Source of the DNA: a virus
Taxonomy: Duplodnaviria > Heunggongvirae > Uroviricota > Caudoviricetes
Reading direction: 5' to 3' (one strand)
IMG/VR virus record: IMGVR_UViG_3300022822_000008
Length of the DNA: 64,000 bases
Shown: positions 8,462 through 59,908 of the stretch, in pieces
Position numbering within the stretch: position 1 is the first letter of the stretch
Layout: each line of letters starts with the position of its first letter
Made by a program: the position numbers and the translations under genes
Notes under the pieces: model-generated
Databases searched by the model: none
What the model was told of the DNA's origin: nothing
The model's input: only the letters and a program-made list of their open reading frames with translations

Positions 8462-8472
8462 ATTAAAAAATT

Positions 8473-15031: not shown

Positions 15032-15061
15032 TATGTTTCCTCTTTTATTTTAATACGCAAA

Positions 15062-15085: not shown

Positions 15086-15098
15086 CATTATTTAATCA

Positions 15099-16386: not shown

Positions 16387-16545
16387 ATGATCTGGTTTCG
16401 GTGTATATCAAATGTTCACAAAAATGCTGGTTTACAGATTCTCTTAATGCACCCATTAATTTTATAAACAACATGATAGTTTCACCCATTTCGTTACTCC
16501 GTATTTGTTTTGATAGACACATTATTACAAATTATATTAGTAATG

Positions 16546-34261: not shown

Positions 34262-34263
34262 AA

Positions 34264-34593: not shown

Positions 34594-35471
34594 TGTATTT
34601 TACTCATTTTGTTTTTTATTCGTTGATCATCATTATAGGTATTTAGTGATTTTTCAGTTACATAGTCAGCAATGATATTATGAGTATAAATTGCGTCAAT
34701 ATGATCTTTGAATATCTCTAGACCTTTTGCAGCGATTAAGTGAGTGACGTAGAGATCTACTTCATATCCCATTTCTTTCAATTTTACGGCGAGTGGAATA
34801 AAAGTACCTCCACCGTCTAAGATATCATCCACAATTAATACTCTTCGCTTGGATTTAACTAAATCTGCATGTGATTTGCAATTCAATTCCACACTTTCAA
34901 TTCTGCCAGTTTCAAGATTACGTTTCTTTAATGCATACAAAACAGGAACTCCAGACATTTCAGATATCTTTTGTATTTTGGTAACAGCGCCAGCGTCAGG
35001 AGAAACTATATAATCGTAATCTGCCATTTGGATATGAGATTTTTTCAAAGTTTCCCGTAGGCAAGTCGCCTGTGTATTAATAACGTAGTTAAGATAATGA
35101 TGATCTAAGGCCTGTTCATTATGCGGGTCGTTGATGTGGATTTCGTCAAAGTTAAATCTTGACAACCAATCTTGAAATACTCTCAGAGGCTCAGTATTTC
35201 CAGTTTGAAAGATTCTATCCGCACGAGCGTAAGGTAAATATCCCAATACTAGAATTTCTTGAATATTATCCATATCGAAAGTATCATAAATTGCATAGTA
35301 AAGCATTTCCATTTTTTCTTTCATTAGAGGAATGTTGTTAGTTTCATCTGTCACATCGATTGAGATGTATTTTTCAATTACTGCATCTGGGTCAACACGA
35401 CAGGTAATAGCAGAATCAGAGAAGGTTAACCATTGTACGTCGATCACTTCGTTGTTAGATATTAGTTGCAT
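34590..35471 (-). CDS. prs: Ribose-phosphate pyrophosphokinase-like protein (PRPP synthetase family)
   Basis: VSPDAGAV..KI flexible-loop motif and PRPP-binding loop RRVLIVDDILDGGGT. Confidence 0.65.
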   Translation of the reverse strand: MQLISNNEVIDVQWLTFSDSAITCRVDPDAVIEKYISIDVTDETNNIPLMKEKMEMLYYAIYDTFDMDNIQEILVLGYLPYARADRIFQTGNTEPLRVFQDWLSRFNFDEIHINDPHNEQALDHHYLNYVINTQATCLRETLKKSHIQMADYDYIVSPDAGAVTKIQKISEMSGVPVLYALKKRNLETGRIESVELNCKSHADLVKSKRRVLIVDDILDGGGTFIPLAVKLKEMGYEVDLYVTHLIAAKGLEIFKDHIDAIYTHNIIADYVTEKSLNTYNDDQRIKNKMSKIQ

Positions 35472-39360: not shown

Positions 39361-40536
39361 TCATAATTTCATCCCTAACCAAGTTGAAAATTTATCCCAC
39401 TTAGTATTTGATCCTACATTAGATTTCACTTTAGACATCATCATATCTTCAACCTTCTTTGAATCAAGATATCCGAATATAAAGTAACCCAGAGACTTGT
39501 CGTCAAGTTGAGTAATGAATTCCAGCGCAATTGCTTTGCGATTGTCTCCGTACATATTCACAACAAACTTACACATCAGTCCTATTTCAAGTTCTTTATC
39601 TTCGATAGATTTGAAAAACAAGGCTTGTGTATCTTTAACTTTTTTCACATCAGCTTCAAGTAAAATAGGCAACACATCATCAACTTCGTTATTAATAATT
39701 AAATTAATAATATTACGCTGAGAACGTACTAAGTCTTTTACTTTATGAATGCGAACATACCACTCGTTTTTGATTTTAATCATATGACCGGAATCAAATC
39801 GAATAACGACACCCTCGCGTCCTTCCTCTAATTTTATTCCATCAGAAAACCCTTTTAAATTCTTATCAACTTGTCCGTATTCAGGTGCTTTATTAAAAGG
39901 AGGGTAATCTTCGAGAGGTAAGTATTCGCCTGTAATGTTATGACGAAGTGCTAACAAAACCAAATCAGCTGCTTCATATTCCAATACTATTTGATTATCA
40001 GGCGCGATAAATTCAAACAAAGGAGTCACATTAAATCTTAGACATTTTTCCATCCATCCGTAGGATATAGCAGAATCTTCCAATCCTGCAAGATAGGTTT
40101 CAGCCTGCATTGCAACATCAGTCACTCCCATTTTTGTACCTAAGCGAATATGACCATCAACCACAAAAGGGCGAATCATCGAACCATCCATTTTTTCCAT
40201 GACCGTATGAGGTTGAGTAATATCTACAACAGATGGTTGTGTTTCCTCACGTTCATTAAGATTGAAGAACTTATGGAATGGACGGCTGATGATTCGGCCC
40301 GTAGTATCGAAGATTAAACCGCGACATTCTCGGCGCATTGAACCAGTAAGAGGATTTCCTGCAATATCAAAAGTATCATCTTTACAGACGACATAGTTAA
40401 TTACAGTATAACCTTCTTTTTCGACTACAACAAACTCGGTGCGGCCTTCGATGTGCGGTAATACATCTTCGATTGTGTTGATAATTGGAAATTTATAATT
40501 CATTTTTTGCTTCCGCCTTGACCCATTGAAATCCAT
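39361..40536 (-). CDS. rnlA: RNA ligase 1 (T4 RnlA / gp63 family)
   Basis: ECRGLIFD, KFFNLNE and nucleotidyltransferase motif I EKMDGSM align with T4 Rnl1. Confidence 0.8.
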   Translation of the reverse strand: MDFNGSRRKQKMNYKFPIINTIEDVLPHIEGRTEFVVVEKEGYTVINYVVCKDDTFDIAGNPLTGSMRRECRGLIFDTTGRIISRPFHKFFNLNEREETQPSVVDITQPHTVMEKMDGSMIRPFVVDGHIRLGTKMGVTDVAMQAETYLAGLEDSAISYGWMEKCLRFNVTPLFEFIAPDNQIVLEYEAADLVLLALRHNITGEYLPLEDYPPFNKAPEYGQVDKNLKGFSDGIKLEEGREGVVIRFDSGHMIKIKNEWYVRIHKVKDLVRSQRNIINLIINNEVDDVLPILLEADVKKVKDTQALFFKSIEDKELEIGLMCKFVVNMYGDNRKAIALEFITQLDDKSLGYFIFGYLDSKKVEDMMMSKVKSNVGSNTKWDKFSTWLGMKL

Positions 40537-40916
40537 ACATCAATATTTGGATTGCTAACATCTAAGCCGTAAGACATAAATATGGGTTTTAGCGATCCTC
40601 TGTACTTAGCATTAACTATATCGTGAAAGCTTTGAATGTCTTTAAACAGATTTGCGTTATCTAAAATAATGTCGGGTAACAGATGTCTATCAAATGTATT
40701 AATTAAATCTTCTACATCACCCTGAAATTCCATTAAGTCTTTATTGTTATGATCCAATAAAAATCCTATTGAGCAATGTAGGCCGTCCCGGGTTCCATAT
40801 GCACAAGTGCCAAATAGTGTTATTGATTGCTCTCCTTGAAGTACCAATCGATCAATTACATAGTCGAAATTTTCTTGTAAGTTCATTTCAATATCTCCTG
40901 TTATTAATTTATGCAA
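40500..40916 (-). CDS. Hypothetical protein, distant member of the LQG..C.YG..C.IG family
   Basis: VLQGEQSITLFGTCAYGTRDGLHCSIGFLL; lies between the pnk kinase ORF and rnlA. Confidence 0.4.
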   Translation of the reverse strand: MHKLITGDIEMNLQENFDYVIDRLVLQGEQSITLFGTCAYGTRDGLHCSIGFLLDHNNKDLMEFQGDVEDLINTFDRHLLPDIILDNANLFKDIQSFHDIVNAKYRGSLKPIFMSYGLDVSNPNIDVWISMGQGGSKK

Positions 40917-40932
40917 CCATTATAACAAAATT

Positions 40933-41475
40933 TTAATCAGTGTCAACGACTAATTGACTCATTAACAAACCAGCCATCTCGCCATAAATATCTATAAATA
41001 TCACAGTATCAAATCCTTCTTTAAGAGTAGGTTCTTGATAAGATTCCTTCATGCTTTTTAATATGCCTGGCGGTATAGTCTTACCTGGTCGACTTTCAAG
41101 ACGTCGATTCCATTCCGCAATATCTTTTTCTGTTTTTGCAGGCAAAAAAGTCTGGCAAACTACTGTATAGCCTGCTTTGGTCATACGTTCCACGATCACT
41201 TTTCGCTTTTTAGAAGTGAGGTTAGTTTGATCCCATATAACATCTTGATTGTTCACTATGGCTTGAGTTAAACCCACTTCGCAAACTTTAATAGCAGGTT
41301 TAATCGTTTCCATAAAAACATCATTATATGTTTTATCTTCCAATTTAGCTACGGATTCTATATAAGCATCCGACGAATACACAAAAATATTTTTTGATGC
41401 TTTAGACGTCATTGTGCTTTTTCCTGAGGCAGGAAGACCAACCATTACGTGACAGAACTTTTGTTTCGTTTCCAT
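40933..41475 (-). CDS. pnk: Polynucleotide 5'-kinase domain protein (T4 Pnk N-terminal-domain homolog) as a stand-alone ORF
   Basis: Walker A GLPASGKST; SSDAYIE and DQTNLTSKKRK align with T4 Pnk kinase motifs. Confidence 0.65.
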   Translation of the reverse strand: METKQKFCHVMVGLPASGKSTMTSKASKNIFVYSSDAYIESVAKLEDKTYNDVFMETIKPAIKVCEVGLTQAIVNNQDVIWDQTNLTSKKRKVIVERMTKAGYTVVCQTFLPAKTEKDIAEWNRRLESRPGKTIPPGILKSMKESYQEPTLKEGFDTVIFIDIYGEMAGLLMSQLVVDTD

Positions 41476-41933
41476 TAGAAATCTACTCCACTTTGATTAC
41501 AATCAAATACCCAGATGCCTTCTTCGCGCCACATTTTGACAACACGAGGACGATCATCGAATACCATATCAGGCATCTGTTTATAACTTTCTATGATACC
41601 ATATAAGATTTCTCTCTTTACGATTGAGTCGCAGCGATAGTCACCGAATCTACGCATGTATAAATCATCATATTCTCCCATGCCATTTTCGCTCAACCAC
41701 GTTTCAGTATCTTTTCGTGTATCGTCAGAACGCCCAGATGCAAAGATTACATACACATTTGGATCTTCAATATAACGGATGCAAACGTCAACGGTTGCTT
41801 TAATAGGCAAATCAAATTTAATGGCCTTATTAAAAGCAGGCCAGTTTTTTGGTTTACATCTCACATATTTTAAACGGTGATCCAAGTTTGCAACAGTTCC
41901 ATCAATGTCAAACACTACTAATAATTTACTCAT
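41475..41933 (-). CDS. Polynucleotide 3'-phosphatase domain protein (HAD; T4 Pnk C-terminal-domain homolog) as a stand-alone ORF upstream of the kinase ORF
   Basis: DxDGT motif VVFDIDGTVA; C-terminus DDRPRVVKMWREEGIWVFDCNQSGVDF closely matches the T4 Pnk C-terminus. Confidence 0.7.
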   Translation of the reverse strand: MSKLLVVFDIDGTVANLDHRLKYVRCKPKNWPAFNKAIKFDLPIKATVDVCIRYIEDPNVYVIFASGRSDDTRKDTETWLSENGMGEYDDLYMRRFGDYRCDSIVKREILYGIIESYKQMPDMVFDDRPRVVKMWREEGIWVFDCNQSGVDF

Positions 41934-43919: not shown

Positions 43920-44120
43920 TTATTTTGATTTTAATTTAAAACAGACAATTACGAGCTCGTCGTCTTTTAATTTACCAACTATACGAAATCTTGTTGCGGC
44001 ATGTTCAGATTTCAATACAGATTTCAATTCATCGACTGCGTAACTTGGTACTCTATATGCAGCGTGAGTTTGCACCGGATCAAAAAGAGTTTGTACGCTG
44101 TAATCTAAAATGTTATGCAT
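43920..44120 (-). CDS. Hypothetical protein
   Basis: Downstream of the promoter cassette at 44157-44185. Confidence 0.4.
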   Translation of the reverse strand: MHNILDYSVQTLFDPVQTHAAYRVPSYAVDELKSVLKSEHAATRFRIVGKLKDDELVIVCFKLKSK

Positions 44121-44156
44121 GATTTATTTCCGTTTGTTGTTTAATTCAATACAACT

Positions 44157-44185
44157 ATTATATCAAAACTCACCTTCAAGTCAAC
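44157..44185 (-). promoter_or_regulatory. Early promoter cassette
   Basis: GTTGAC-17-TTGATATAATAGTTGTATTGAATTAAACAACAAACGG. Confidence 0.55.
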
Positions 44186-44447
44186 AATTATCTTCGCTAA
44201 ACCAAAAAACTTTTCTTGCATTATTGAACTCTAAACATTTAGTCGGTAGTTCTTTTCTCGCTTTAAATGAAATATGATCTCGCAATACGTCTGACATATA
44301 AACCATGTCTTTGAATGCCCAAGGACTGTTTAGCACCAGTGTATAATAAGTCATCTTGGATTCAACCTCACCTGATATGCATAGATCTTCATTGCTGCAT
44401 GCTAGAAATTGATTCAAATCTGCAATAAATTCGTGTTCGGTTTTCAT
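44181..44447 (-). CDS. Hypothetical protein
   Basis: 88-aa ORF. Confidence 0.4.
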   Translation of the reverse strand: MKTEHEFIADLNQFLACSNEDLCISGEVESKMTYYTLVLNSPWAFKDMVYMSDVLRDHISFKARKELPTKCLEFNNARKVFWFSEDNC

Positions 44448-44460
44448 TGTTTAATTACCT

Positions 44461-44775
44461 CTAGTAGTTCTTACATTCGCCTTTGACAGCTGGAAATACT
44501 CGCCCATCTTTTGTGGTTCGTCTCTTTAAACTTTCCGCTTCACATTGTTCTACTTGTCTGTTGTGCTTTTCCCAATCGCAAGTCATACCAAAATCTTTAT
44601 CGCTATTTCTATACGTGATACACTCCAGTCCGTTGTATCTGTGTACTTCGTCAAAATGAACCTCCAATGGAGTTTTTTGAGTACCAGGTGTGTTATAGCT
44701 GTATATAAAAAACACTACAATCACACAAGCTAATATGACATTAACAGTCTTCCAACTCATAATTTTAAACTTCAT
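44461..44775 (-). CDS. Membrane-anchored protein
   Basis: N-terminal transmembrane segment. Confidence 0.4.
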   Translation of the reverse strand: MKFKIMSWKTVNVILACVIVVFFIYSYNTPGTQKTPLEVHFDEVHRYNGLECITYRNSDKDFGMTCDWEKHNRQVEQCEAESLKRRTTKDGRVFPAVKGECKNY

Positions 44776-45160
44776 GATCGAGTGACATTTTAAGGTTATC
44801 TATGTTCTTGATTTCGCCAACGAAAGTTTGATATGAAACTCCAAATTTTGCGGCAAGGCCTTTTGCGTTAGGATTTGCTTTTTGAAAAATGGTTTTTGAT
44901 TCGCCTTCAATAAGGCCTTTGGATAGAAGTGATAAGCAAGCGTTATATGAGATTTTACTTTTGTTAGATTGACCGTAAATTCTTCCGTATGTAAAACCGA
45001 TACGGTTGATAGATTCTTTAAGTAATTTTCTTTCAGCTTTATTGAGGAACATAATTTTCTCTTTTGTGTTTTGATTCAATACAACTATTATATCAAAGTC
45101 CCAAGTAGAGTCAACCCTTTTATGCACTATACTAAAAAAGTTGCAAACAAACGTCTGCAA
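44765..45160 (-). CDS. Hypothetical protein
   Basis: 131-aa ORF. Confidence 0.4.
   Translation of the reverse strand: MQTFVCNFFSIVHKRVDSTWDFDIIVVLNQNTKEKIMFLNKAERKLLKESINRIGFTYGRIYGQSNKSKISYNACLSLLSKGLIEGESKTIFQKANPNAKGLAAKFGVSYQTFVGEIKNIDNLKMSLDHEV
45087..45115 (-). promoter_or_regulatory. Early promoter cassette
   Basis: GTTGAC-17-TTGATATAATAGTTGTATTGAATCAAAACACAAAAGAG. Confidence 0.55.
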
Positions 45161-45347
45161 CCTTTTCTCTAGTCTAAGTAAGCTTCACCGAAACCCCAAT
45201 CTTCTTCTTGAGTTTTCATTATATTCTCTTTATGTTAATCCCAGTAGCCGTCTTCGTAATTGTTGACTCTGCTTGTTGGGAGTTGATACCACAAACATAT
45301 TAAATATCTATAATATGTTTTGCAATGCTGATTTGCTAGGCTGTTCA

Positions 45348-45830
45348 TCAACATACCAAATTTTGAAAATATTTGCCAAACAATACAAACCCACGATCTA
45401 CTCTCTGATAAAACTGAAACATTTTATCGTCATCGCATTTATAAGTATGATTTTTACCTTCTTTCATATTTTTTCCTATATATTCAATTGCACCAGTCGC
45501 GTAAAAGTAGTCTTCATTGTAGTCTGGATCGTTTTGACATTTGTAAGTATGATTAAATGAAAAGATCATCTCATCAAGAATCCAGGCCCAGCGCTTTTCA
45601 CTAAAACCTTCATGTTTTTCTTCTGGATCAAGTTGTAATAAAAAAGGAACATCCAATTTATCAGTTAATGGTGTTCCTTTTTTATTTTTTCTCAACTGTT
45701 TCAGCATCGGCAATATAACAGGAGAAAGTGTGCAGCCGAAATCCCAGCTGTCATGCTTGTCCAATCTTAGTTTGTATCTTGCGCCATAATTCTTTTTTGT
45801 GTTATCGAACTTATAACTATATTTCATCAT
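45348..45830 (-). CDS. Hypothetical protein
   Basis: 160-aa ORF. Confidence 0.45.
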   Translation of the reverse strand: MMKYSYKFDNTKKNYGARYKLRLDKHDSWDFGCTLSPVILPMLKQLRKNKKGTPLTDKLDVPFLLQLDPEEKHEGFSEKRWAWILDEMIFSFNHTYKCQNDPDYNEDYFYATGAIEYIGKNMKEGKNHTYKCDDDKMFQFYQRVDRGFVLFGKYFQNLVC

Positions 45831-46185
45831 TTAATCCTTTCAACCACGGGTGCCGTCAATCCTCTTGTATATCATGCTTAATATACGCATCGAGAATTCT
45901 TTGTTTTTGTTACAATTTTCAGGTAATATCATATAGCCATCTTCATCAGTTAGAGCTGGACTGAATTTGGCGTGATTTGGTCTCTTTGTAGTAACTCTCA
46001 TTCTTTCCCCTCTACATACGAATCAAGTTTCTTTCCTATAAACCTACCGAGGTGCCAACCTCCTATCACGGTCATCATAGGAACACTAACTTGATATGCT
46101 AATACGATAGTCACTGAAACAAGACACAGTATTATCAGTGATAATACAATTCTAAACTTCTTACTTTCAAACATAATCCCAACCT

Positions 46186-47205
46186 TTATTTTTCTTTCAA
46201 CAGATATTTATTGCTTATTGCTTTGAAACTTTTTTGGCCGTCATGGCTTTTAAATACTAAACCTTCTCGATTAGTACTATTTAGAATACTCATTCCGTCT
46301 GCATCTTTAATAATATCAGAAGCAGTTGTATATCGTACAGACAGAGGCGTATAGTATAAAACAGGCACTGAATCTATCCCAACACGTTTAAATTCGAATC
46401 TTGCATCTGGGGTTAAGTATCGTTGTGTTTGTATATCGAATATATCAAATACCTTAAATTGAGTTTTATCAAGTTTGTAGATGTTTTTCTGAATGCCTGG
46501 TCCGATAAGCTCACCTTGAATCGCAATATTATCCCAATATCTACCATCAATAAATCCACAATTTCTCATCTTTGTTTCGATATCTAAACGTCTTGCGCAT
46601 TCCCAAAAGCCATTACCTTCGGTCTCTTTAAGATCGAGATTTCTGCTACATACACCAAATTCACCGTCAATTAGATAACAGGTCATTGAACTGCCTTCTA
46701 ATTTTTCTGTAATTTCCCATGATTCAGGAGAAGTCAAATAGTTGGCAACATGAGACATACAATTTTGAATTCTTTCTTGATCTGTTTTTCTTATTTGCGG
46801 AGGGAAATTACCTTTGGCCATACCTGCAAGTTGAGCATTTACGGGAGGATCGTATTTAGCGATATTCAAAATTTCAGAAACATCGTCACCGATATCCCAA
46901 AAGTCAGTTAGGAGTTCAGTAGATAATATTAGACCTTGACTAATTTGCCCGCGCAATTTAATTGTTCTGAGGCGTTCACCTTTCACGCCTTCATACGTGC
47001 GAGGTTCTTTTCCTTTAGATAGAAACGGTGCCAAATCTATAGGTATCCAACTGTCAATTTCACAAAAAACAATTATCTGTCCTTCGTTGTATTCACCTTT
47101 TCTGATTACAACTTTCCAGCCGTCTACGGTCGCGACTTCAATTGCGTCAGCGTTTTCGATTGGGCTCACGTCGCTAATCATTCGTACTGTTGCCATCTGT
47201 CTCAT
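46186..47205 (-). CDS. Rnl2-superfamily RNA ligase with an extra N-terminal (OB-like) domain and no Rnl2 C-terminal domain (Rnl5/DraRnl-like architecture)
   Basis: Motif I EKLEGSS; GELIGPGIQKNIYKLDKTQFKVFDIFD aligns with T4 Rnl2 GEFAGPGIQKNV...FYVFDI; motif IV EGLVFKS; motif V KAISNK. Confidence 0.7.
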   Translation of the reverse strand: MRQMATVRMISDVSPIENADAIEVATVDGWKVVIRKGEYNEGQIIVFCEIDSWIPIDLAPFLSKGKEPRTYEGVKGERLRTIKLRGQISQGLILSTELLTDFWDIGDDVSEILNIAKYDPPVNAQLAGMAKGNFPPQIRKTDQERIQNCMSHVANYLTSPESWEITEKLEGSSMTCYLIDGEFGVCSRNLDLKETEGNGFWECARRLDIETKMRNCGFIDGRYWDNIAIQGELIGPGIQKNIYKLDKTQFKVFDIFDIQTQRYLTPDARFEFKRVGIDSVPVLYYTPLSVRYTTASDIIKDADGMSILNSTNREGLVFKSHDGQKSFKAISNKYLLKEK

Positions 47206-47277
47206 AATATAATTCCAGTTTATTTAAGTTTATAGGTGTATTATACGTAAAATTTGTTTTACTGTCAACATTTATTT

Positions 47278-48252
47278 TTATTTTCTTTCCCACATATAAG
47301 GTGTCATATTAAAGAATTGTTTTTCCATTTTTACATAGCCTTTATCACGCATAAGTTGGTTGAATCTTCTACTTATTTTCTTCCAATCAATTATGTCAGT
47401 GCCAACAAAGAAATTACTATCTTTATATTCTTTGAAGTGCCCGATGCCTACAGTACCGAAAGAGTTGGCGATTATCATATATCTAGGATTGTTTGCTTCA
47501 ATAACCTCAGCAAGATGTTCTAGCGGATATTCGATGTGTTCAAAGTATTCACAAGCAAATAATATATCAATTTCACCCAAGTTGAGTGAATTTTCTTCTA
47601 GTCGGAAATCGCAGGTTTTTTGTAACGCCTGGGATATTTTCCATTGTTCGCAGTCTTTAAAATTTGTAGCAATAACCTCTGCATCTGGATATAGGCTTTT
47701 CCAACCTACAGTCGTTCTACCTATACCGTTACCGAGATCCAATATGCGTTTCACGTCTGAAAATATGTGTAAGTGTTTAGAAAGACCTTTCATAACATTT
47801 CGAGTATAAACCATCCAGCAAGCATAAGCCTCTACATAATAATCATCGTCAGAATAAACCGAGTAGTCTATTTCGCCTTTATCTAGAGCATCAATCCATT
47901 GTCGCTCTAAATGCTCCAATGGATTTGCCGGGCGTTCTGGATCTTTAGAACCGTAGGAATAATATTTAATTAAAGAATTAACTTTTGCTGTTGCTTCATC
48001 AGCATCTAGCGTCCTTACATTTTCATTAAATAGTTCGATGAACTGTCTTAAATCTTCTATAGGTCGTATTTCTAAACTGTTCATAATGTATATTGCCTTA
48101 CTGTCGAATATTATTTTGGATTCGTTTTCAATTTTCCTAGGTATGTATAATTTCCCATCCAATACAATTTTAGTTTTAACGTCAAAAGGGTCTCTTGTGT
48201 TGAACTCATCGACCGTAAAATTTGCATCGGCTCCTTTCCGACAGTGTACCAA
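47278..48252 (-). CDS. Hen1-like SAM-dependent methyltransferase (candidate RNA 3'-terminal 2'-O-methyltransferase)
   Basis: SAM motif I ILDLGNGIGRTT; motif II DAEVIATNF; motif IV DILFACEYFEHIE plus downstream LEHL resemble the Hen1 metal-binding E..EH/H signature; gene is adjacent to the RNA ligase. Confidence 0.5.
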   Translation of the reverse strand: MVHCRKGADANFTVDEFNTRDPFDVKTKIVLDGKLYIPRKIENESKIIFDSKAIYIMNSLEIRPIEDLRQFIELFNENVRTLDADEATAKVNSLIKYYSYGSKDPERPANPLEHLERQWIDALDKGEIDYSVYSDDDYYVEAYACWMVYTRNVMKGLSKHLHIFSDVKRILDLGNGIGRTTVGWKSLYPDAEVIATNFKDCEQWKISQALQKTCDFRLEENSLNLGEIDILFACEYFEHIEYPLEHLAEVIEANNPRYMIIANSFGTVGIGHFKEYKDSNFFVGTDIIDWKKISRRFNQLMRDKGYVKMEKQFFNMTPYMWERK

Positions 48253-48370
48253 TTTTCGTATACCGTCTTTACACCTTTGTAATAAATTGTCTTAAGTTCT
48301 TCATAGGTATCAACGATGTACTTGTTATCAACATCAAAGTAAATGTAATTAATTAAATCAGAACCTTCTT

Positions 48371-48787
48371 CTACATTAGACATAATTTTTCTTCCATTTC
48401 ATAGGCTTCAATTTCCCATGGACGTTCTAAGTAAGGCGTTCCAAAATAATCAACGCCTTCCCATGTAAAATCATCAAGGCGACCAGACAAGAATTGCTGT
48501 ACGTGTACCAACTCGTGAGCTATGTTGCGCAGCATTTCGTCGATTGGTATCACGCCTTGAGAGTCATGTTGAGCGATTGAAACGTAAGCGGTTTGGTCGT
48601 CACCGCTTGATCCTCCGCCGTGTCCATCCAAGTCGTGAAGAAATTCAATATCAACGAAGCCTTCATAGTCATAGATATTTAGTTCTTCGCAAACTCTACC
48701 GATGAATGAAACCAAATAATTAAAAGATTCACATAGGTTTGAAGGTTTGTGTATAGTTACATTTTCAATTGTTTTCATTTTATCCAA
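48371..48787 (-). CDS. Small HExxH protein (putative zinc metallopeptidase)
   Basis: IAHELVHVQQF. Confidence 0.4.
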   Translation of the reverse strand: MDKMKTIENVTIHKPSNLCESFNYLVSFIGRVCEELNIYDYEGFVDIEFLHDLDGHGGGSSGDDQTAYVSIAQHDSQGVIPIDEMLRNIAHELVHVQQFLSGRLDDFTWEGVDYFGTPYLERPWEIEAYEMEEKLCLM

Positions 48788-48807
48788 ACTAGGCTTTTTG
48801 AGTGAAT

Positions 48808-49374
48808 CTATTTTTCATTAGATTTATAATTATTCAAACTTTTTTCTAGATTCTTAATGTGAGACTTATAAAGTTCTGAGTCAGCATGAAGTTTATCGTT
48901 TTCAAGTTGGAGTTCGGATTTTGTATCGGATATAGTTTTGTATTTAGCTAATAGTGCTTTGAATTCACCGTAGAGTTTCTCATGTTTATCTCGCATCGCA
49001 TGTCTTTCTTGTGGTTCGGCGCTTAATTCTTCAATATGAGACTTATAGATTTTTACATCGGCGTCAATCCTAAGTAGCGAAACTCTAAGAGTATTATTAG
49101 CATTTGTCAATTTCAAAACGTCATCCTGCAATTTTGAAATTTTAATGTCTTTATCATCAGGTTCGGGATTTACATTTTTCACCAGACTTTGTTCATGTGT
49201 TTCTTGCAATTCTTCAAACCGCAGCTGATAAATTGTGTACATACCTAGTAATGCATTAAGTATGTTATCTTTATTATCGCCGAAATCAGTATCACTTATG
49301 TTACGGTACAACAAATCAATATCATCCACGACCTGCCATGCTTTCATGTATTTGTCTTCAACTGTATATTTCAT
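48808..49374 (-). CDS. Coiled-coil protein
   Basis: 188-aa ORF with heptad-rich sequence. Confidence 0.45.
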   Translation of the reverse strand: MKYTVEDKYMKAWQVVDDIDLLYRNISDTDFGDNKDNILNALLGMYTIYQLRFEELQETHEQSLVKNVNPEPDDKDIKISKLQDDVLKLTNANNTLRVSLLRIDADVKIYKSHIEELSAEPQERHAMRDKHEKLYGEFKALLAKYKTISDTKSELQLENDKLHADSELYKSHIKNLEKSLNNYKSNEK

Positions 49375-49562
49375 TTTATAGCTCCTAAGAATTCTTCATA
49401 ATTCATACTACCATTTTTCAGTAATATGTTCAATTTTAATATAACGTGGTCCGCATAATCGACACCACACTTTGTACACTCTAGAAAAAACATTTGTTCG
49501 CCGTTGTATCTTTCGGATTTAATTTTAATTTCAGAACGTTCTCCACATACGTCACAGTTCAT
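49371..49562 (-). CDS. Small zinc-ribbon protein
   Basis: CDVCGE...CTKCG. Confidence 0.4.
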   Translation of the reverse strand: MNCDVCGERSEIKIKSERYNGEQMFFLECTKCGVDYADHVILKLNILLKNGSMNYEEFLGAIK

Positions 49563-49848
49563 GCTTGCGCATCCGATCGGGATAAAAATCCGAATCTGTT
49601 ATGATAATATCGTTAATTTCCAAAGATGTGTATGTTGTGCCATCCATACATAATACACGTATATGTTTTGTTGATTTCATGTTAGCAGTGGCTGGAAAGG
49701 GATAAAACTCATACATCCCACCATTATCTTTACAAATAAATTTTCCTTTTGCTATGTGCATATTGCTCATCTTGCCGCAACCAAATATGATTGCAATTGC
49801 AAAAAGCAAACATATAGGTTTGCTAAACTTTTTCATATTCACTAACAC
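49552..49848 (-). CDS. Small secreted protein or lipoprotein
   Basis: Signal-like N-terminus ending in FGCGK. Confidence 0.4.
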   Translation of the reverse strand: MLVNMKKFSKPICLLFAIAIIFGCGKMSNMHIAKGKFICKDNGGMYEFYPFPATANMKSTKHIRVLCMDGTTYTSLEINDIIITDSDFYPDRMRKHEL

Positions 49849-50266
49849 CTCTGAACTGCAATTCGTCTAAAACATAGGTCAAGCCTGCACAATGTAAAGC
49901 CATTCCGTGAGAACCGTCTTGACAAGATGCCCAATGTTCGTTTTTATCTCTTATCGAGAAACATTCAGCGCGTAATTCTTCAATTGTCATTTCTTTTACG
50001 TTCATGGTTATTACCTGTTTTTTGATTAGGATGTAATCATATCAAATGCTAATGTCAGTGTCAATGTTTAAATTGTAAAATCTAAAATTACTTTCTGATA
50101 TGCCGTAATGTGTTCTTCGATAATATCAATGTCTTGCAGATTATTATTATAGACAAAAATATTCAGACTCTCGCCTGCTCTTATTTTCTTTGCGCTTTCT
50201 TGGAGGAACATGAGTCCTTCCTGTAAACTTTTTCGTACTATGGATTCTACCATTTCATCATTTAAC

Positions 50267-50812
50267 TTAATCTTCATAACCGTACTCCACAAGTAATGAT
50301 TCTCTAAAGCGTTGTTCTTTTAATTGATGTAAATTTACAGGCTTATACCTTACGTTTTCACAAGATACATTAATGAAGCCCGGGTCGCGCACAGTGTTTC
50401 CGTGAACGTGACCATGGATATTAATACAGCCCCTAAGTTCATCTGGATGAATTGGAGGATGAGTCAACCAAAAACCTGACTGTTTGAACATGGAACCTAC
50501 CTTTGCGTAATATCCTTGCTTGATAGACTCTTTTAAAATCTCAACTCTCTCGGCGTTGTCCGTATCGTGGTTACCTGGAACAAAATTAATACGCTCATAA
50601 TATGGCGCAATTTCTTGAAGAAACTTATACGATTCCCAAGTGAAGAAACAGTCACCTAGCATCCAGAGTTGATTTCTTTTGCTGCCCGCAAGTTTAATAT
50701 TTTCTTTCAAAAGTTCGTCGTGTTCTTCAATCGAAGAAAACTCAGGTCTGTACTTAATTATTGAGCCGTGCCCAATGTGAAGGTCGCTGATAATATAACT
50801 ACTGCTCATCAT
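50267..50812 (-). CDS. Calcineurin-like metallophosphoesterase (Ser/Thr phosphatase or diadenosine tetraphosphatase family)
   Basis: SDLHIGH, GDCFF, GNHD and HGHVHG motifs. Confidence 0.7.
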   Translation of the reverse strand: MMSSSYIISDLHIGHGSIIKYRPEFSSIEEHDELLKENIKLAGSKRNQLWMLGDCFFTWESYKFLQEIAPYYERINFVPGNHDTDNAERVEILKESIKQGYYAKVGSMFKQSGFWLTHPPIHPDELRGCINIHGHVHGNTVRDPGFINVSCENVRYKPVNLHQLKEQRFRESLLVEYGYED

Positions 50813-57076: not shown

Positions 57077-58234
57077 TTACTCGTCAGATAAGATATCACA
57101 AATTTCGTCTGCAAGAGCAGAGAAGAAACCATAATCATTTTTTGGATTGCATCTTGTTGTTTCAGCTGCTGTACCTAATCTAATACCGCTTGTTTGAACG
57201 AATGACCTCGGATCATTAGGAACACTATTTTTGTTTACCGTTATATGTCTTAATTCTAAAAGATCAGCTGCTTCTCTACCGCTATATTTTGAATTACTTA
57301 AATCAAGCAATATGATATGACATTCAGTACCTCCAGTCAGAACTTTAAATCCTCTTTCAATAAAAATATTGGCCATGGTTTGAGCATTAGAAATAACTCT
57401 TTTTGCGTAGCTTATAAATTCTGGTGTATCTGCTTCAATAAAACACTGAGCCTTCGCTGCAATAATATGCATCAATGGACCGCCTTGAGTACCTGGGAAT
57501 ATAGCGCTGTTGATTCGTTTGGATAAGCATTCAGAATTCCATAAAATAAATCCACCACGCGGGCCGCGTAAAGTTTTGTGTGTTGTAGAAGTTACTACAT
57601 CAGCATAGGGTACGGGTGAAGGATAAGCTTTTGCAGCAATTAAACCAGAGTAGTGTGACATATCAGCAACTAAAAAAGCGCCTATTTCGTCTGCAATTTC
57701 TCTGAAGATATGCCATTCGATTATACCTGAATATGCACTAGCACCAGCAACAATAACTTTAGGTTTAAATGTTAACGCTTTGTTTCTAACGTCTTGCATA
57801 TCGATATAGCCATCTTCATCAACTCCATAGGAATAAGAGTCGTAAGTTTTACCTGATATATTTACAACACTGCCATGCGAAAGATGACCGCCTGCAGATA
57901 ATGACATTCCTAACAAAACATCACCAGGTTCAAGAAGTGCTTGATAAACAGCTGTGTTTGCATTCGCGCCAGAATGGGGTTGGACATTTGCAAATCTTGC
58001 ACCATATAACTTACAAACAGAATCAATTGCTAATTGCTCAATTTCGTCCATATGATCGCAGCCATTATAATAACGCCTGCCTGGATATCCTTCAGCATAT
58101 TTGTTAGTAAAGACAGAACCGCACAAATCCATAACTTCTTGACTAGCGAAATTTTCACTAGCAATTAGCTCGATTGTTCTATCTTGTCTTTTCGTTTCTT
58201 TATATAATATTTTTGCTATGCTGTTATCTATCAT
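57077..58234 (-). CDS. glyA: Serine hydroxymethyltransferase
   Basis: SHMT motifs LIASENFAS, YSGLIAA and the PLP-lysine loop TSTTHKTLRGPRGG. Confidence 0.9.
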   Translation of the reverse strand: MIDNSIAKILYKETKRQDRTIELIASENFASQEVMDLCGSVFTNKYAEGYPGRRYYNGCDHMDEIEQLAIDSVCKLYGARFANVQPHSGANANTAVYQALLEPGDVLLGMSLSAGGHLSHGSVVNISGKTYDSYSYGVDEDGYIDMQDVRNKALTFKPKVIVAGASAYSGIIEWHIFREIADEIGAFLVADMSHYSGLIAAKAYPSPVPYADVVTSTTHKTLRGPRGGFILWNSECLSKRINSAIFPGTQGGPLMHIIAAKAQCFIEADTPEFISYAKRVISNAQTMANIFIERGFKVLTGGTECHIILLDLSNSKYSGREAADLLELRHITVNKNSVPNDPRSFVQTSGIRLGTAAETTRCNPKNDYGFFSALADEICDILSDE

Positions 58235-58681
58235 TTATAACCCCATTGTCTTTAGTATATCGTCGTATTCCATTTGACGTCTTTTATCATCTGATAGAAT
58301 TGCCTGTGCTCGTTTTTCCAGTTGCGCCAATGCAGTTTCTTTTTGTTTTAGCTCTATCATGGACATTCTTTTCTTGATGTCAGTAGTCCAATCTTTAACG
58401 TAAAAGCTTTTAAACAATATAGGTTTTGCTATCTGATTCAACGTTGCATCTGCACGACCTCTAAATTCTTCCCACATTAAAAGTTGAGTCAATGATTCAA
58501 CTAACACAGGCGCCGATGCTGTGGCGATATTAATAGAATCAGAATTTCCGAACTTCAAGGAACAATTGGTAACCCAACAACTCTGAAGCTCTGATTTAAC
58601 TTTTGCAATTTCTGTTCTGTCGCTTTCTATTTTTTGGATGATTGCTTCGATCTTATCGTCGATGCCGTAATCTTTACTCAT
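58235..58681 (-). CDS. Hypothetical protein
   Basis: 148-aa ORF, start/stop-adjacent to glyA. Confidence 0.45.
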   Translation of the reverse strand: MSKDYGIDDKIEAIIQKIESDRTEIAKVKSELQSCWVTNCSLKFGNSDSINIATASAPVLVESLTQLLMWEEFRGRADATLNQIAKPILFKSFYVKDWTTDIKKRMSMIELKQKETALAQLEKRAQAILSDDKRRQMEYDDILKTMGL

Positions 58682-58693: not shown

Positions 58694-59908
58694 TTAGTAT
58701 CTACGTACAGGGGTAGATGTGCCGTTTGAACAAACCAGAGTAGCCACTTTAAACCCAGTTACTTCTAGCTGTTGTAATAATCTTTCTCTTGTTGTTTCTG
58801 TTTTATTTTCAAAAATAATACTTTCATAGCGCGCCAAAATTTCTCTGGAAGCGGAATCTGGATCGTAATCTTTTATCATTTGACCGTCGATAAATTCTAC
58901 AATTGCAAATAAGTTTCTATTTCTTCCGTTTCCGTAACCGTTATGAAAATGTCTTCTATCATATCTACTTACTAAATTTGATTGGTGATAATAACTTATA
59001 GTGCCATCGAATGTAACGAATTTACCCTTCGTCTCAATCTCTTTAAAAAAAGATACATTACCGGAATAATTGTTTGCAAGTAAATAAGCATCACTTTCTT
59101 TCTTTGTTACATCAGTCAACTTATAACCTGTAATGGGCTGACTTAGTCGCGATTTTTCAAATTCAATTACACGATCTGCATAGTCATCCACACATTCGTC
59201 AAGGATACATTCAGCAAGTTGGGAAGTAGACGGTACAATAAATGTCCTTCTTTCAAAACTGTATTCACAGCAATCTGTGTATTGAAAGATGTGTTTGTTA
59301 CCCTTCAATAACATTCTTCGGCTCATTGCGTTTGAATTGAGTGTGCCGTGAGATTCCTCTTGATACCACGGACGAAATCCGATATAAATCAGTTTGTTTT
59401 CGTTACTTTTCATACTGTAGGTATGACCTTTAACAAAGTCTTTAGTGGATAAGTTTTTGGACTGTTTCTTGGTGTGAATTACGGATTCTCTGTACTGTTC
59501 GGAGTTTGTAGGTAACAACACTAAGTCTTTGCCGCACCAAGCATAAACGCATTCTTCAACAATATCGCGCTTGGATACGTCTGAGTGCATGAGAATACCG
59601 ATTAGATTATCTACTGAAATTTCAAATTCGAAATCGCGCTCATCGTGTACTCTGACTACGCTTCGCCCAGAACCAAAATGTGATCCAGATCTTTCAATTC
59701 CCTTATTGAACATAAAGGAGGTTTGTGGTTTGTTTTCAAGTTCTAAAGTTCCGAGCTGATGATTTCTCCAACTGTCCCATGAGGGTTTCTTCCTGTGTAC
59801 GCCTTTATCATCAACATAGACAATGTAAGCAAGTTTACCAGTGAAGGTACCATAACGTTCTTGAAATCCTACCATAATGGTTTTTGGTATATACAATTTA
59901 CTATTCAT
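58694..59908 (-). CDS. Hypothetical protein (404 aa)
   Basis: Long ORF with no recognisable motif. Confidence 0.55.
   Translation of the reverse strand: MNSKLYIPKTIMVGFQERYGTFTGKLAYIVYVDDKGVHRKKPSWDSWRNHQLGTLELENKPQTSFMFNKGIERSGSHFGSGRSVVRVHDERDFEFEISVDNLIGILMHSDVSKRDIVEECVYAWCGKDLVLLPTNSEQYRESVIHTKKQSKNLSTKDFVKGHTYSMKSNENKLIYIGFRPWYQEESHGTLNSNAMSRRMLLKGNKHIFQYTDCCEYSFERRTFIVPSTSQLAECILDECVDDYADRVIEFEKSRLSQPITGYKLTDVTKKESDAYLLANNYSGNVSFFKEIETKGKFVTFDGTISYYHQSNLVSRYDRRHFHNGYGNGRNRNLFAIVEFIDGQMIKDYDPDSASREILARYESIIFENKTETTRERLLQQLEVTGFKVATLVCSNGTSTPVRRY

What the first reader, a model, noticed from the sequence alone, without database searches (positions are those of the whole stretch)
46186..48252. 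RNA ligase plus Hen1-like methyltransferase gene pair, a possible phage RNA repair-and-protect module
ORF 46186..47205 has Rnl2-family nucleotidyltransferase motifs: EKLEGSS, GPGIQKN...FKVFDIFD (matching T4 Rnl2 GPGIQKNV...FYVFDI), EGLVFKS and K.ISNK. It also has a ~150-aa N-terminal extra domain and no Rnl2 C-terminal domain, which is the Rnl5/DraRnl-like architecture. Directly upstream, 47278..48252 is a class I SAM methyltransferase whose motif IV region DILFACEYFEHIE, plus a downstream LEH, resembles the metal-binding E..EH/H signature of Hen1 2'-O-methyltransferases. Bacterial Pnkp/Hen1 systems pair end-healing and sealing with 2'-O-methylation so the repaired RNA junction cannot be re-cut. 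A phage version would be a counter-measure to host anticodon nucleases (PrrC, RloC, colicin-like). I am not aware of a described phage Hen1. A small HExxH protein (48371..48787) follows and might belong to the module.
Basis: partly seen in the sequence, partly recalled or inferred. Interest (0 to 1): 0.8.

Follow-up and report, generated by a model that had tools for sequence, protein, structure and literature searches.

The report
RNA ligase beside unrelated orphan methyltransferase
A large phage carries a genuine RNA-sealing ligase next to a methyltransferase, but the methyltransferase is not a Hen1-type RNA protector: its relatives in other phages sit beside, or are fused to, DNA-sugar-transferase genes, so the two genes are most likely neighbours by chance.

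Summary
Both ORFs are real and lie on the minus strand. 46186..47205 is a full-length Rnl5 (DraRnl/NgrRnl) RNA ligase. It matches PDB 5cot at E 4e-76 over 2-339, passes the TIGR02306 cut-off, and has all nucleotidyltransferase motifs. The methyltransferase ORF was drawn too long: the gene is 47278..48084 (268 aa, ATG).

It is a class I SAM methyltransferase with an invariant E-x-x-E-H. No test singles out Hen1:
- a PDB profile search ranks 60 other methyltransferases first;
- hhalign to Hen1 covers only the generic core;
- the Hen1 DHxFEWTR histidine motif is absent.

Comparative genomics settles it. In 50 sequence groups of the family, 41 have a TET-associated DNA glycosyltransferase (TAGT, PF20691) in the locus, always on the same strand. 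In 28 groups it lies within 50 nt or is fused. Other fusions are with ParB-N. An Rnl5 ligase is a neighbour only in this phage (0 of 49 other groups). None of 50,697 cultured phage records has the methyltransferase, although 348 have the ligase. A perfect TTGACA-17-TATAAT promoter lies between the two genes.

The phage's RNA repair set is ordinary: an RnlA-family ligase, a split Pnkp and Rnl5. The methyltransferase is an orphan of an uncharacterised family linked to DNA hypermodification.

The parts
46186..47205 (-). Rnl5-family (DraRnl/NgrRnl-type) ATP-dependent RNA ligase, 339 aa: N-terminal OB domain plus nucleotidyltransferase domain; motif I K168-L-E-G
   Evidence: PDB 5cot Naegleria gruberi RNA ligase E 3.8e-76, residues 2-339 vs 5-338. 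Pfam PF21189 and PF09414. NCBIfam TIGR02306 RNA_lig_DRB0094, 203.8 bits against a cut-off of 151.15. phrog_968 RNA ligase 1.8e-86. Motif positions.
47240..47268 (-). Perfect sigma-70 consensus promoter-like site (TTGACA, 17 nt, TATAAT; 12 of 12) in the 72-nt gap between the methyltransferase stop and the ligase start
   Evidence: It is the only 12/12 site in 44000..50500. A consensus match only; function not shown.
47278..48084 (-). Class I SAM-dependent methyltransferase, 268 aa (true start ATG 48084). N-terminal about 100-aa helical domain plus Rossmann fold. Invariant D116/G118 (motif I), E179-Y-F-E182-H183, N207, G215-H216-F217, Y220. Orphan member of a phage family that is normally adjacent or fused to TAGT DNA glycosyltransferases
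   Evidence: family, invariant residues; AF2 model, pLDDT 93.4; fold neighbours; TAGT linkage; family size, fusions.
48085..48252 (-). It overlaps the 90-aa ORF upstream
48111..48383 (-). 90-aa ORF of unknown function upstream of the methyltransferase; no family match and no homologue near other family members
48371..48787 (-). 138-aa HExxH protein (HELVH at residue 91), phrog_16532, unknown function; not a conserved partner of either gene
39361..40536 (-). T4 RnlA-family (Rnl1-like) RNA ligase, 391 aa; with the two genes below it forms the phage's candidate tRNA heal-and-seal set, 5.6 kb downstream of Rnl5
   Evidence: Pfam PF09511 3.6e-28. phrog_562 7e-72. TIGR02308 2.9e-45, 155 bits, below the 242.25-bit cut-off.
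40933..41475 (-). P-loop kinase (AAA_33), stand-alone; polynucleotide 5'-kinase-like by its position next to the phosphatase gene
   Evidence: Pfam AAA_33 1.7e-13. phrog_2071 ATPase 8.2e-22 is the best PHROG match; phrog_505 polynucleotide kinase 1.1e-11.
41475..41933 (-). Polynucleotide 3'-phosphatase (HAD, PNKP phosphatase domain), stand-alone
   Evidence: Pfam PF25109 HAD_PNKP 3.1e-25. phrog_415 1.2e-37.

Best explanation
The two genes are functionally unrelated neighbours in the early-gene region of a large (at least 210 kb) phage.

(1) 46186..47205 encodes an Rnl5-type RNA ligase. By homology to NgrRnl/DraRnl it is adenylylated on Lys168 and seals 3'-OH/5'-phosphate nicks in duplex RNA. 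It probably belongs to the phage's RNA repair toolkit, together with an RnlA-family ligase and a split polynucleotide kinase/phosphatase at 39361..41933 and a 23-gene tRNA array. That is the usual answer to host anticodon nucleases.

(2) 47278..48084 encodes a member of a widespread but uncharacterised phage methyltransferase family. The family's conserved partner is a TET-associated (GT-A fold) DNA glycosyltransferase, with nucleotide-sugar enzymes and ParB-N as further partners. I infer that the family acts in post-replicative DNA hypermodification. The most likely reaction is SAM-dependent O-methylation of the sugar (or of the hydroxymethyl group) on glycosylated 5-hydroxymethylpyrimidines, with the invariant E179/E182/H183 (and H216) forming the active or metal site that holds the hydroxyl acceptor. 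In this phage the gene is an orphan: no TAGT lies in the 64-kb window. It would have to work with a glycosyltransferase encoded elsewhere, or it has a reduced or changed role.

Shown: the family identity of both proteins, the fold, the conserved residues, the gene-neighbourhood statistics and the fusions. Inferred: the substrate and chemistry of the methyltransferase, the metal binding, and the in vivo role of the ligase.
For: Ligase: full-length match to solved NgrRnl with all motifs; passes the curated TIGR02306 cut-off; 348 cultured phage records carry homologues.

Repair context: RnlA-family ligase and a split Pnk kinase/phosphatase, RlaP, 23 tRNA genes.

Methyltransferase not Hen1:
- A PDB-wide profile search lists 60 other methyltransferases at E up to 1.1, with no Hen1 chain among them.
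- An NCBIfam scan gives only weak BioC/ArsM hits for the window protein, and no Hen1 model among the 25 families shown.
- hhalign against a Hen1 alignment built from PDB-verified sequences gives probability 92% over only the 98 core columns. A relaxed alignment does not place the family's H216 on the Hen1 DHxFEW histidine.

Family context:
- The IMG/VR scan found 272 relatives.
- In 50 groups at 80% identity, 41 have TAGT in the locus, always on the same strand: 28 within 50 nt (including 3 single-ORF fusions), 8 within 1.2 kb.
- Independent look-ups show the same pattern.
- The representative search finds 455 clusters at E<=1e-30, with fusions to TAGT (P0069, P0094) and ParB_N (P0049, P0125, P0126, P0141).
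- The commonest other neighbours are NAD-dependent sugar epimerases/dehydratases (8), then three families with 2 each: UDP-glucose dehydrogenase, cytidylyltransferase and ParB_N.
- PF20691 is the family of the T2/T6 beta-glucosyl-HMC-alpha-glucosyltransferase (PMC13216743, PMC13390438). GT-A phage glycosyltransferases transfer sugars to 5hmC in DNA (bioRxiv 10.1101/2023.12.21.572611). GTs, ParB, epimerases and 'O-methyltransferases' co-occur in 5mYOX pathways (PMC13229309).

No conserved pairing:
- An Rnl5 homologue lies near the methyltransferase only in this phage.
- The methyltransferase is absent from 50,697 cultured phage records.
- Three cultured phages with Rnl5 have no annotated methyltransferase next to it.
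- A 12/12 consensus promoter separates the two genes.
Against: - No TAGT-like ORF is detectable anywhere in the 64-kb window (hmmsearch E<=10), so the partner that defines the family's context is missing here.
- Only about 84 of at least 210 kb of the phage could be inspected. The only glycosyltransferase seen is a GT4 (GT-B) enzyme about 22 kb away.
- No thymidylate-synthase-like hydroxymethylase occurs in the family loci, and no TET/JBP family appears among the 25 commonest Pfam families of the sampled neighbours. The acceptor base is therefore unknown.
- The window's ThyA is a canonical thymidylate synthase.
- GT-A/TAGT-like enzymes also have non-DNA relatives such as TarP, so 'DNA' is an inference strengthened mainly by the ParB-N fusions.
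- The methyltransferase does share E-x-x-E-H with Hen1. A metal-assisted attack on a sugar hydroxyl would be Hen1-like chemistry.
- 9 of 50 groups lack TAGT in the stretch available.
Confidence: 0.62

Rival explanations
1. One reading: the methyltransferase is a Hen1-like, metal-dependent RNA 3'-terminal 2'-O-methyltransferase. It marks the junction sealed by the adjacent ligase so that host anticodon nucleases cannot re-cut the repaired tRNA.
For: The gene is adjacent to the ligase on the same strand with a 72-nt gap. E-x-x-E-H is invariant and aligns with the Hen1 E-x-x-E-H. Downstream histidines are conserved: H190 in at least 90% of members, H216 invariant. The phage has healing and sealing enzymes and a large tRNA array, so it plausibly faces anticodon nucleases. 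This copy lacks the family's usual TAGT partner. One other locus (L030) has RnlA-family and Pnk-phosphatase homologues 4-6 kb from its methyltransferase.
Against: - No sequence, profile or fold search prefers Hen1 over generic methyltransferases.
- The Hen1-specific STPNxEFN...DH(K/R)FEWTR block is absent or not alignable.
- 41 of 50 family groups pair with a DNA glycosyltransferase, and some members are fused to TAGT or ParB-N.
- 0 of 49 other groups have an Rnl5 neighbour.
- None of the 348 cultured phage records with an Rnl5 ligase has this methyltransferase.
- A consensus promoter separates the genes.
- L030 also has TAGT 275 nt from its methyltransferase.
- Bacterial Hen1 works with the Pnkp ligase domain through its own N-terminal domain, which is not present here (established knowledge of the Pnkp/Hen1 system).
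Confidence: 0.05
2. The methyltransferase works in a sugar pathway but not on DNA. It methylates a nucleotide-sugar donor or a non-DNA glycoconjugate (host envelope polymer or virion glycan) made by the TAGT-like GT-A enzyme and the associated epimerases and dehydrogenases.
For: Neighbours include NAD-dependent sugar epimerase/dehydratase, UDP-glucose dehydrogenase and cytidylyltransferase. One member (L002) sits in a cluster with GT2, pyruvyl transferase, acetyltransferase, radical SAM and MFS genes that looks like polysaccharide modification. Weak NCBIfam similarity to pseudaminic-acid-associated and NanM sugar methylases. A sugar O-methyltransferase (EvdMO1) is among the Foldseek hits. GT-A phage enzymes have TarP-like relatives, and 65% of GT contigs have no adjacent base-modification gene (bioRxiv 10.1101/2023.12.21.572611).
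Against: Four fusions to the DNA-associated ParB N-terminal domain and ParB neighbours point to DNA. PF20691 members with known function act on DNA (PMC13216743). The loci lie among replication genes such as UvsW, clamp loader and helicase.
Confidence: 0.18
3. The methyltransferase modifies the DNA base itself rather than the sugar. Examples are O-methylation of the 5-hydroxymethyl group (5-methoxymethyl pyrimidine) or another non-canonical base methylation that precedes or competes with glycosylation.
For: ParB-N fusions, as seen for DNA-modifying enzymes. Tight coupling to a DNA glycosyltransferase. 9 of 50 groups, including this phage, keep the methyltransferase without TAGT in the stretch available, which suggests it can act on a non-glycosylated substrate.
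Against: It lacks the motifs of known DNA methyltransferases: motif IV is ASEYFEH, not (D/N/S)PP(Y/F) or P-C. Its nearest folds are small-molecule O-/C-methyltransferases. Frequent nucleotide-sugar enzymes nearby fit sugar tailoring better.
Confidence: 0.1

Closest known systems
Rnl5 RNA ligases: Naegleria gruberi NgrRnl (PDB 5cot) and Deinococcus radiodurans DraRnl (TIGR02306)
   Same: Same two-domain architecture (N-terminal OB, C-terminal nucleotidyltransferase, no Rnl2-type C-domain). End-to-end alignment. Conserved TDQER, K-L-(D/E)-G-S-S, QGE..G..IQ.N, F.FDI.D, REGLVFK and SFKAISN.YL blocks.
   Different: Motif I reads KLEG instead of KLDG. Phage-encoded, but 348 cultured phage records already carry homologues, so it is an ordinary new member.
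Hen1 RNA 3'-terminal 2'-O-methyltransferases (C. thermocellum 3jwg, human HENMT1 4xcx, Arabidopsis HEN1 3htx)
   Same: Class I AdoMet fold, and an E-x-x-E-H element directly after strand beta4 that aligns with the Hen1 metal ligands. The chemistry is possibly analogous: metal-assisted O-methylation of a sugar hydroxyl (inference).
   Different: - Similarity is limited to the generic core: 98 columns, 16% identity.
- No DH(K/R)FEWTR histidine motif.
- Motif II ends in T-N rather than the Hen1 G-V-D.
- A different N-terminal helical domain.
- Not among the best structural or profile matches.
- The genomic partner is a DNA glycosyltransferase, not Pnkp or an RNA ligase.
Phage DNA glycosylation pathways built on TET-associated glycosyltransferases (PF20691; T2/T6 beta-glucosyl-HMC-alpha-glucosyltransferase; metavirome GT-A enzymes)
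   Same: The methyltransferase family is adjacent or fused to PF20691 genes in most loci. It shares their other companions: ParB, sugar epimerases and UDP-glucose dehydrogenase (PMC13216743; PMC13229309; bioRxiv 10.1101/2023.12.21.572611).
   Different: I found no described pathway that includes a characterised SAM methyltransferase of this family; the surveys only mention 'O-methyltransferases' or 'methyltransferases' as co-occurring annotations. In this window the TAGT partner is missing.
COMT-like (family 2) small-molecule O-methyltransferases and other natural-product methyltransferases (e.g. 5icc, 3mcz, 3gwz, SibL 4qvg, EvdMO1 5t39)
   Same: Best structural neighbours: a Rossmann core preceded by a helical N-terminal domain.

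Membership tests
Rnl5 (DraRnl/NgrRnl) RNA ligase | N-terminal OB domain fused to a C-terminal nucleotidyltransferase domain, with no additional C-terminal domain | tested here: met
   PF21189 (4-94) plus PF09414 (162-330) in a 339-aa protein. End-to-end alignment to NgrRnl 5-338 of 340.
Rnl5 (DraRnl/NgrRnl) RNA ligase | Covalent nucleotidyltransferase motifs I (KxDG lysine), III, IIIa, IV, V | tested here: met
   K168-L-E-G, FKVFDIFD, EGLVFKS and FKAISNKY all align with the NgrRnl motifs. Motif I has E in place of D.
Rnl5 (DraRnl/NgrRnl) RNA ligase | Score above the curated family threshold | tested here: met
   TIGR02306 RNA_lig_DRB0094 equivalog, 203.8 bits against a cut-off of 151.15.
Rnl5 (DraRnl/NgrRnl) RNA ligase | ATP-dependent sealing of 3'-OH/5'-PO4 nicks in duplex RNA | not testable with these tools
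   Needs an adenylylation and nick-sealing assay.
Hen1 2'-O-methyltransferase | Class I AdoMet-dependent methyltransferase fold | tested here: met
Hen1 2'-O-methyltransferase | Metal ligands E-x-x-E-H after strand beta4 | tested here: met
   E179-Y-F-E182-H183 is invariant in 24 of 24 members and aligned to Hen1 E-V-I-E-H. Not specific: coclaurine N-methyltransferase has E-L-F-E-H at the same place.
Hen1 2'-O-methyltransferase | Fourth metal ligand: the histidine of the conserved DH(K/R)FEWTR block, preceded by STPNxE(F/Y)N | tested here: not met
   The block is invariant in three divergent Hen1 proteins and absent here. The family's own H216 (GHF) is not aligned to it, and alignment confidence is near zero beyond beta5.
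Hen1 2'-O-methyltransferase | Sequence or profile similarity to Hen1 above that to other methyltransferase families | tested here: not met
   A PDB profile search lists 60 other methyltransferases, none of them Hen1. NCBIfam gives only BioC/ArsM for the window protein. No Hen1-specific Pfam domain at E<=0.1. hhalign covers the core only.
Hen1 2'-O-methyltransferase | Hen1 structures among the nearest structural neighbours | tested here: not met
Hen1 2'-O-methyltransferase | Conserved genomic or physical coupling to an RNA repair ligase (Pnkp in bacteria) | tested here: not met
   An Rnl5 neighbour in 0 of 49 other groups; RnlA-family and Pnk-phosphatase homologues in 1 of 49. The methyltransferase is absent from all 348 cultured phage records that have the ligase.
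Hen1 2'-O-methyltransferase | Methylates the 2'-OH of the 3'-terminal nucleoside of RNA | not testable with these tools
   Needs an in vitro assay.
TAGT-associated phage methyltransferase family (unnamed; signature A-[SFC]-E-Y-F-E-H ... N-S-F ... G-H-F-x-x-Y) | Full-length similarity including the N-terminal helical domain and all invariant residues | tested here: met
   The window protein is P0001. It has 33-47% identity to 23 homologues over the whole length and all 23 invariant columns. 332 bits to the family profile.
TAGT-associated phage methyltransferase family (unnamed; signature A-[SFC]-E-Y-F-E-H ... N-S-F ... G-H-F-x-x-Y) | Same-strand adjacency or fusion to a PF20691 glycosyltransferase | tested here: not met
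   No TAGT-like ORF in the whole window at E<=10, nor in the 10 kb beyond either end. The rest of the at least 210-kb genome could not be inspected.

The most novel reading that the evidence does not exclude
The methyltransferase family to which 47278..48084 belongs adds a methyl group to the glycan (or to the hydroxymethyl group) of glycosylated 5-hydroxymethylpyrimidines in phage DNA. That would be a methylated-sugar DNA hypermodification, which I did not find described in the papers I read. This jumbo phage would then use it with a glycosyltransferase encoded elsewhere in its genome. The family has at least 455 sequence clusters and no member in cultured phages.
Probability: 0.3. Interest if true: 0.7.

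Novelty: new member of a known kind. Interest (0 to 1): 0.35.

Why it matters
A phage Hen1 would have been a new layer in the arms race over tRNA cleavage. The evidence says this is not one, so that claim should be dropped.

What remains:
- An ordinary Rnl5 ligase in a phage that is well equipped for RNA repair.
- A lead unrelated to RNA. This is a large, purely metagenomic methyltransferase family that is adjacent or fused to DNA glycosyltransferases and ParB domains. It is a good candidate for an undescribed tailoring step in phage DNA hypermodification. It could be tested directly with existing co-expression and LC-MS platforms.

Tried and rejected
1. Megablast of 45000-50000 against cultured phages found nothing, so the phage could not be identified.
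2. tblastn of the methyltransferase and of a distant family member against 50,697 phage records found nothing.
3. Single-sequence PDB search of the methyltransferase returned only noise.
4. I first read 'TAGT' as T4 alpha-glucosyltransferase. The Pfam description and two papers corrected this to TET-Associated Glycosyltransferase, GT-A fold.
5. tblastn of TAGT, epimerase and other neighbour proteins from the related loci against the window found no homologues.
6. The TAGT HMM against all six-frame ORFs of the window found nothing.
7. Extending 10 kb beyond both window ends found only a GT4 glycosyltransferase and no TAGT.
8. A search for ThyA-like hydroxymethylases in the family loci found none.
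9. The AFDB Foldseek library was unavailable.
11. The Iyer et al. 2013 paper that defined TAGT could not be retrieved.
12. The HExxH protein gave no Pfam, NCBIfam or PDB match. Only weak homologues turned up in 2 of 49 other groups, so I rejected it as a module member.
13. I considered whether the methyltransferase could be a DNA amino- or C5-methyltransferase and rejected this because its motif IV is wrong for both.
Full report
**What is at the coordinates.** All genes in this part of the window run on the minus strand, at about 35% G+C. ORF 46186..47205 (339 aa) and ORF 47278..48252 (324 aa from a TTG) exist as described, and so does the small HExxH ORF 48371..48787.

The methyltransferase ORF was drawn too long. 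The TTG extension overlaps the 90-aa ORF 48111..48383. Public gene calls give a 268-aa product starting at the ATG at 48084 (P0001, 100% identical; gene 2720-3526 of L001). All 23 homologues begin there, and an AAGG lies about 10 nt upstream. I therefore take the gene to be 47278..48084.

**The ligase.**
- Pfam finds the PHA02142 OB-fold domain (residues 4-94) and the RNA_ligase domain (162-330).
- PHROGs assigns phrog_968 'RNA ligase' at 1.8e-86.
- The protein aligns end to end (2-339 against 5-338 of 340) with the solved Naegleria gruberi RNA ligase at E 3.8e-76. The TDQER, KL(D/E)GSS, QGE..G..IQ.N, F.FDI.D, REGLVFK and SFKAISN.YL blocks are conserved.
- It passes the curated cut-off of NCBIfam TIGR02306, the Deinococcus DRB0094 (DraRnl) equivalog, with 203.8 bits against 151.15.

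The only deviation is KLEG for KLDG in motif I. Such ligases are common in cultured phages: 348 records hold one, 340 of them covering at least 80% of the query. It is an ordinary new member of a known family.

**The methyltransferase by itself.** Pfam gives only sub-threshold Methyltransf_11/12 hits. Most homologues carry Methyltransf_23/11/12 annotations.

The alignment of 24 family members shows these invariant residues:
- D116 and G118 (motif I);
- Q147 and D173;
- E179-Y-F-E182-H183;
- N207 and F209;
- G215-H216-F217, and Y220;
- several further aromatic residues.

An AlphaFold2 model built on this alignment is confident (pLDDT 93.4, pTM 0.91). It shows a helical domain of about 100 residues in front of a Rossmann fold.

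**Is it Hen1-like?** I tested this in six ways.
1. A family profile searched against all PDB sequences lists 60 methyltransferases with E up to 1.1. The best are coclaurine N-methyltransferase and a Methanosarcina methyltransferase; plantazolicin methyltransferase and CFA synthase also rank high. No Hen1 chain appears. Coclaurine N-methyltransferase itself has E-L-F-E-H at the aligned position, so E-x-x-E-H is not diagnostic.
2. An NCBIfam scan of all 24 members shows Tam, BioC, UbiG and sugar-associated methylases among the 25 families displayed. The window protein hits only BioC and ArsM weakly. No Hen1 model appears.
4. I obtained tool-verified Hen1 sequences (human HENMT1 4xcx, bacterial 3jwg, Arabidopsis 3htx) and aligned them. 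hhalign of the family against this alignment gives probability 92% and E 6.5e-7. It covers only the 98 columns from motif I to strand beta5, at 16% identity. The two E-x-x-E-H elements are superposed.
5. With a relaxed alignment, the Hen1 block STPNxEFN...DH(K/R)FEWTR is invariant in the three Hen1 proteins and carries the fourth metal ligand. It has no confident counterpart here, and the family's own invariant H216 does not fall on the Hen1 histidine.
6. Among predicted viral structures, one giant-virus 'small RNA 2'-O-methyltransferase' appears, at the same weak level as generic methyltransferases.

Conclusion: the family shares with Hen1 the fold and the E-x-x-E-H element, and nothing that distinguishes Hen1 from other class I methyltransferases.

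**Comparative genomics.** Look-ups of eight homologues showed a PF20691 gene next to or near the methyltransferase in five. A sixth lay in a cluster with a family-2 glycosyltransferase and pyruvyl-transferase and acetyltransferase genes. None was near an RNA ligase.

PF20691 is the 'TET-Associated Glycosyltransferase'. This is the GT-A-fold family of the T2/T6 enzyme that adds the second glucose to glucosyl-hmC DNA (PMC13216743; PMC13390438). Metavirome members of this kind transfer sugars to 5hmC in DNA (bioRxiv 10.1101/2023.12.21.572611).

A scan of IMG/VR found 272 relatives, and I analysed 80 loci. The window's own ACEYFEH escapes the A[SF]EYFEH search pattern that was used.

I grouped the methyltransferases at 80% identity, which gave 50 groups, and searched the loci with a TAGT HMM built from the neighbours. 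The results:

| TAGT position relative to the methyltransferase | Groups |
|---|---|
| Within 50 nt, often overlapping, in either order (includes 3 single-ORF TAGT-methyltransferase fusions) | 28 |
| 51-1200 nt | 8 |
| Farther away in the locus | 5 |
| None in the stretch available | 9 |

In all 41 groups with a TAGT it lies on the same strand.

An exhaustive search of 1.84 billion representative proteins finds 455 clusters at E<=1e-30. Of the best 150, 12 are multidomain. Pfam identifies the extra domains as TAGT (P0069, P0094) or the ParB N-terminal domain (P0049, P0125, P0126, P0141).

I then scanned the three nearest same-strand neighbours of 49 groups. The commonest families were NAD-dependent sugar epimerases/dehydratases (8). 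UDP-glucose dehydrogenase, cytidylyltransferase and ParB_N followed with 2 each. No RNA-ligase or TET family is in the list. GTs, ParB, sugar epimerases and 'O-methyltransferases' are exactly the companions reported for phage 5-methylpyrimidine dioxygenase pathways (PMC13229309).

**The pair is not conserved.**
- phmmer with the window ligase against all ORFs of all 93 loci hits only the window and its identical contig L001.
- RnlA-family and Pnk-phosphatase homologues occur in one other locus, 4-6 kb from a methyltransferase that has its own TAGT.
- From the ligase side, the 50,697 cultured phage records include 348 with an Rnl5 ligase, but none has a detectable homologue of the methyltransferase.
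- Three inspected Rnl5 neighbourhoods have no annotated methyltransferase.
- Within the window, the 72-nt gap between the two genes holds the only perfect TTGACA-17-TATAAT site of the region. This suggests, without proving it, that the ligase is transcribed on its own.
- The HExxH protein has no family assignment and only weak homologues in two other groups.

**What the window phage does have.** It carries a T4 RnlA-family ligase (39361..40536). Next to it are a stand-alone P-loop kinase, polynucleotide-kinase-like (40933..41475), and a stand-alone PNKP-type phosphatase (41475..41933). It also has an RlaP-family protein and a DNA ligase, and 23 tRNA genes at 611..8625. Healing and sealing are thus covered by ordinary components, and Rnl5 is plausibly part of that toolkit.

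No TAGT-like ORF exists in the 64 kb or in the 10 kb beyond either end. A GT4 glycosyltransferase lies about 22 kb from the methyltransferase. The window's ThyA is a canonical thymidylate synthase.

**Most likely explanation.** The two genes are neighbours by chance. The ligase seals RNA nicks (by homology). The methyltransferase is an orphan copy of a family that works with DNA glycosyltransferases, and I infer a role in DNA hypermodification.

The likeliest chemistry is O-methylation of a sugar or hydroxymethyl oxygen. The invariant E/E/H(/H) cluster at the ends of strands beta4 and beta5 would hold the acceptor, possibly through a metal. In that limited sense it may work a little like Hen1, as a metal-assisted attack by a sugar hydroxyl, but on a different polymer.

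The substrate, the metal and the link to DNA rather than to another glycoconjugate are all inferences. The ParB fusions are the main argument for DNA.

**Verdict.** The ligase call is right. The Hen1 'repair-and-protect' idea is not supported. The residual interest lies in the uncharacterised family linked to TAGT and ParB, of which this gene is an atypical, partner-less member.

Noticed in passing
window 39361..41933 (-): A T4-like tRNA heal-and-seal set with the Pnkp functions split into two genes. The RnlA-family ligase (391 aa) is followed upstream by a 138-aa ORF, then a stand-alone P-loop kinase (180 aa) and a stand-alone PNKP-type HAD phosphatase (152 aa). The phosphatase stop and the kinase start share base 41475.
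   Followed up: partly
window 611..8625 (-): An array of 23 tRNA genes. It includes a predicted ochre suppressor (anticodon TTA, 2982..3056) and one tRNA-like gene with an abnormal anticodon loop (6177..6254).
   Followed up: no
window 47240..47268 (-): A perfect sigma-70 consensus (TTGACA, 17 nt, TATAAT) exactly in the methyltransferase-ligase intergenic gap. 11/12 sites lie upstream of other small early-type ORFs (50064..50036, 45114..45087, 44184..44157).
   Followed up: partly
window 32513..35471 (-): A nicotinamide phosphoribosyltransferase-like gene (582 aa) and a phosphoribosyltransferase-domain, PRPP-synthetase-like gene (293 aa) form an NAD salvage pair. The same pair lies a few kb from the Rnl5 ligase in Pseudomonas phage pf16 (L101).
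   Followed up: no
window 57077..58234 (-) and 19940..20803 (-): The phage encodes a serine hydroxymethyltransferase (Pfam 1.3e-146) and a canonical thymidylate synthase that passes the NCBIfam cut-off. A 404-aa protein with no family match (58694..59908) lies a short way upstream of the SHMT gene, with a 148-aa ORF (58235..58681) in between.
   Followed up: partly
window 13539..17451 (-): An ATP-dependent DNA ligase (368 aa), an SPFH/Band 7 protein (294 aa) and an RlaP-family (RNA repair pathway, pol-beta-type nucleotidyltransferase) protein (301 aa) lie close together.
   Followed up: no
L094 1378..3724 (about 6-8 kb beyond the right end of the window): A GT4 (Glycos_transf_1) glycosyltransferase of 318 aa is preceded by two overlapping unknown genes (212 and 252 aa). 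It is the only glycosyltransferase seen near the window and a possible distant partner of the orphan methyltransferase.
   Followed up: partly
L023 9014..10663, L034 2902..4563, L051 2615..4294; proteins P0069, P0094, P0049, P0125, P0126, P0141: Natural fusions of the methyltransferase family with TAGT (the glycosyltransferase at the N-terminus) and with the ParB N-terminal domain (in either order). The family has at least 455 clusters at 50% identity and no member in 50,697 cultured phage records.
   Followed up: yes
L048 3292..4221, L092 8719..9900, L031 5995..7017, L043 4892..5344: Family loci often encode a UDP-glucuronate-decarboxylase-like epimerase/dehydratase, a UDP-glucose dehydrogenase and a cytidylyltransferase. 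This suggests the phages make their own unusual nucleotide sugar, perhaps a pentose or uronic acid, for the TAGT enzyme.
   Followed up: partly
window 50267..50812 (-) and 29167..31182 (-): A calcineurin-like metallophosphoesterase (181 aa) lies 2 kb upstream of the methyltransferase. The largest ORF of the window (671 aa) has no match in Pfam or NCBIfam.
   Followed up: no
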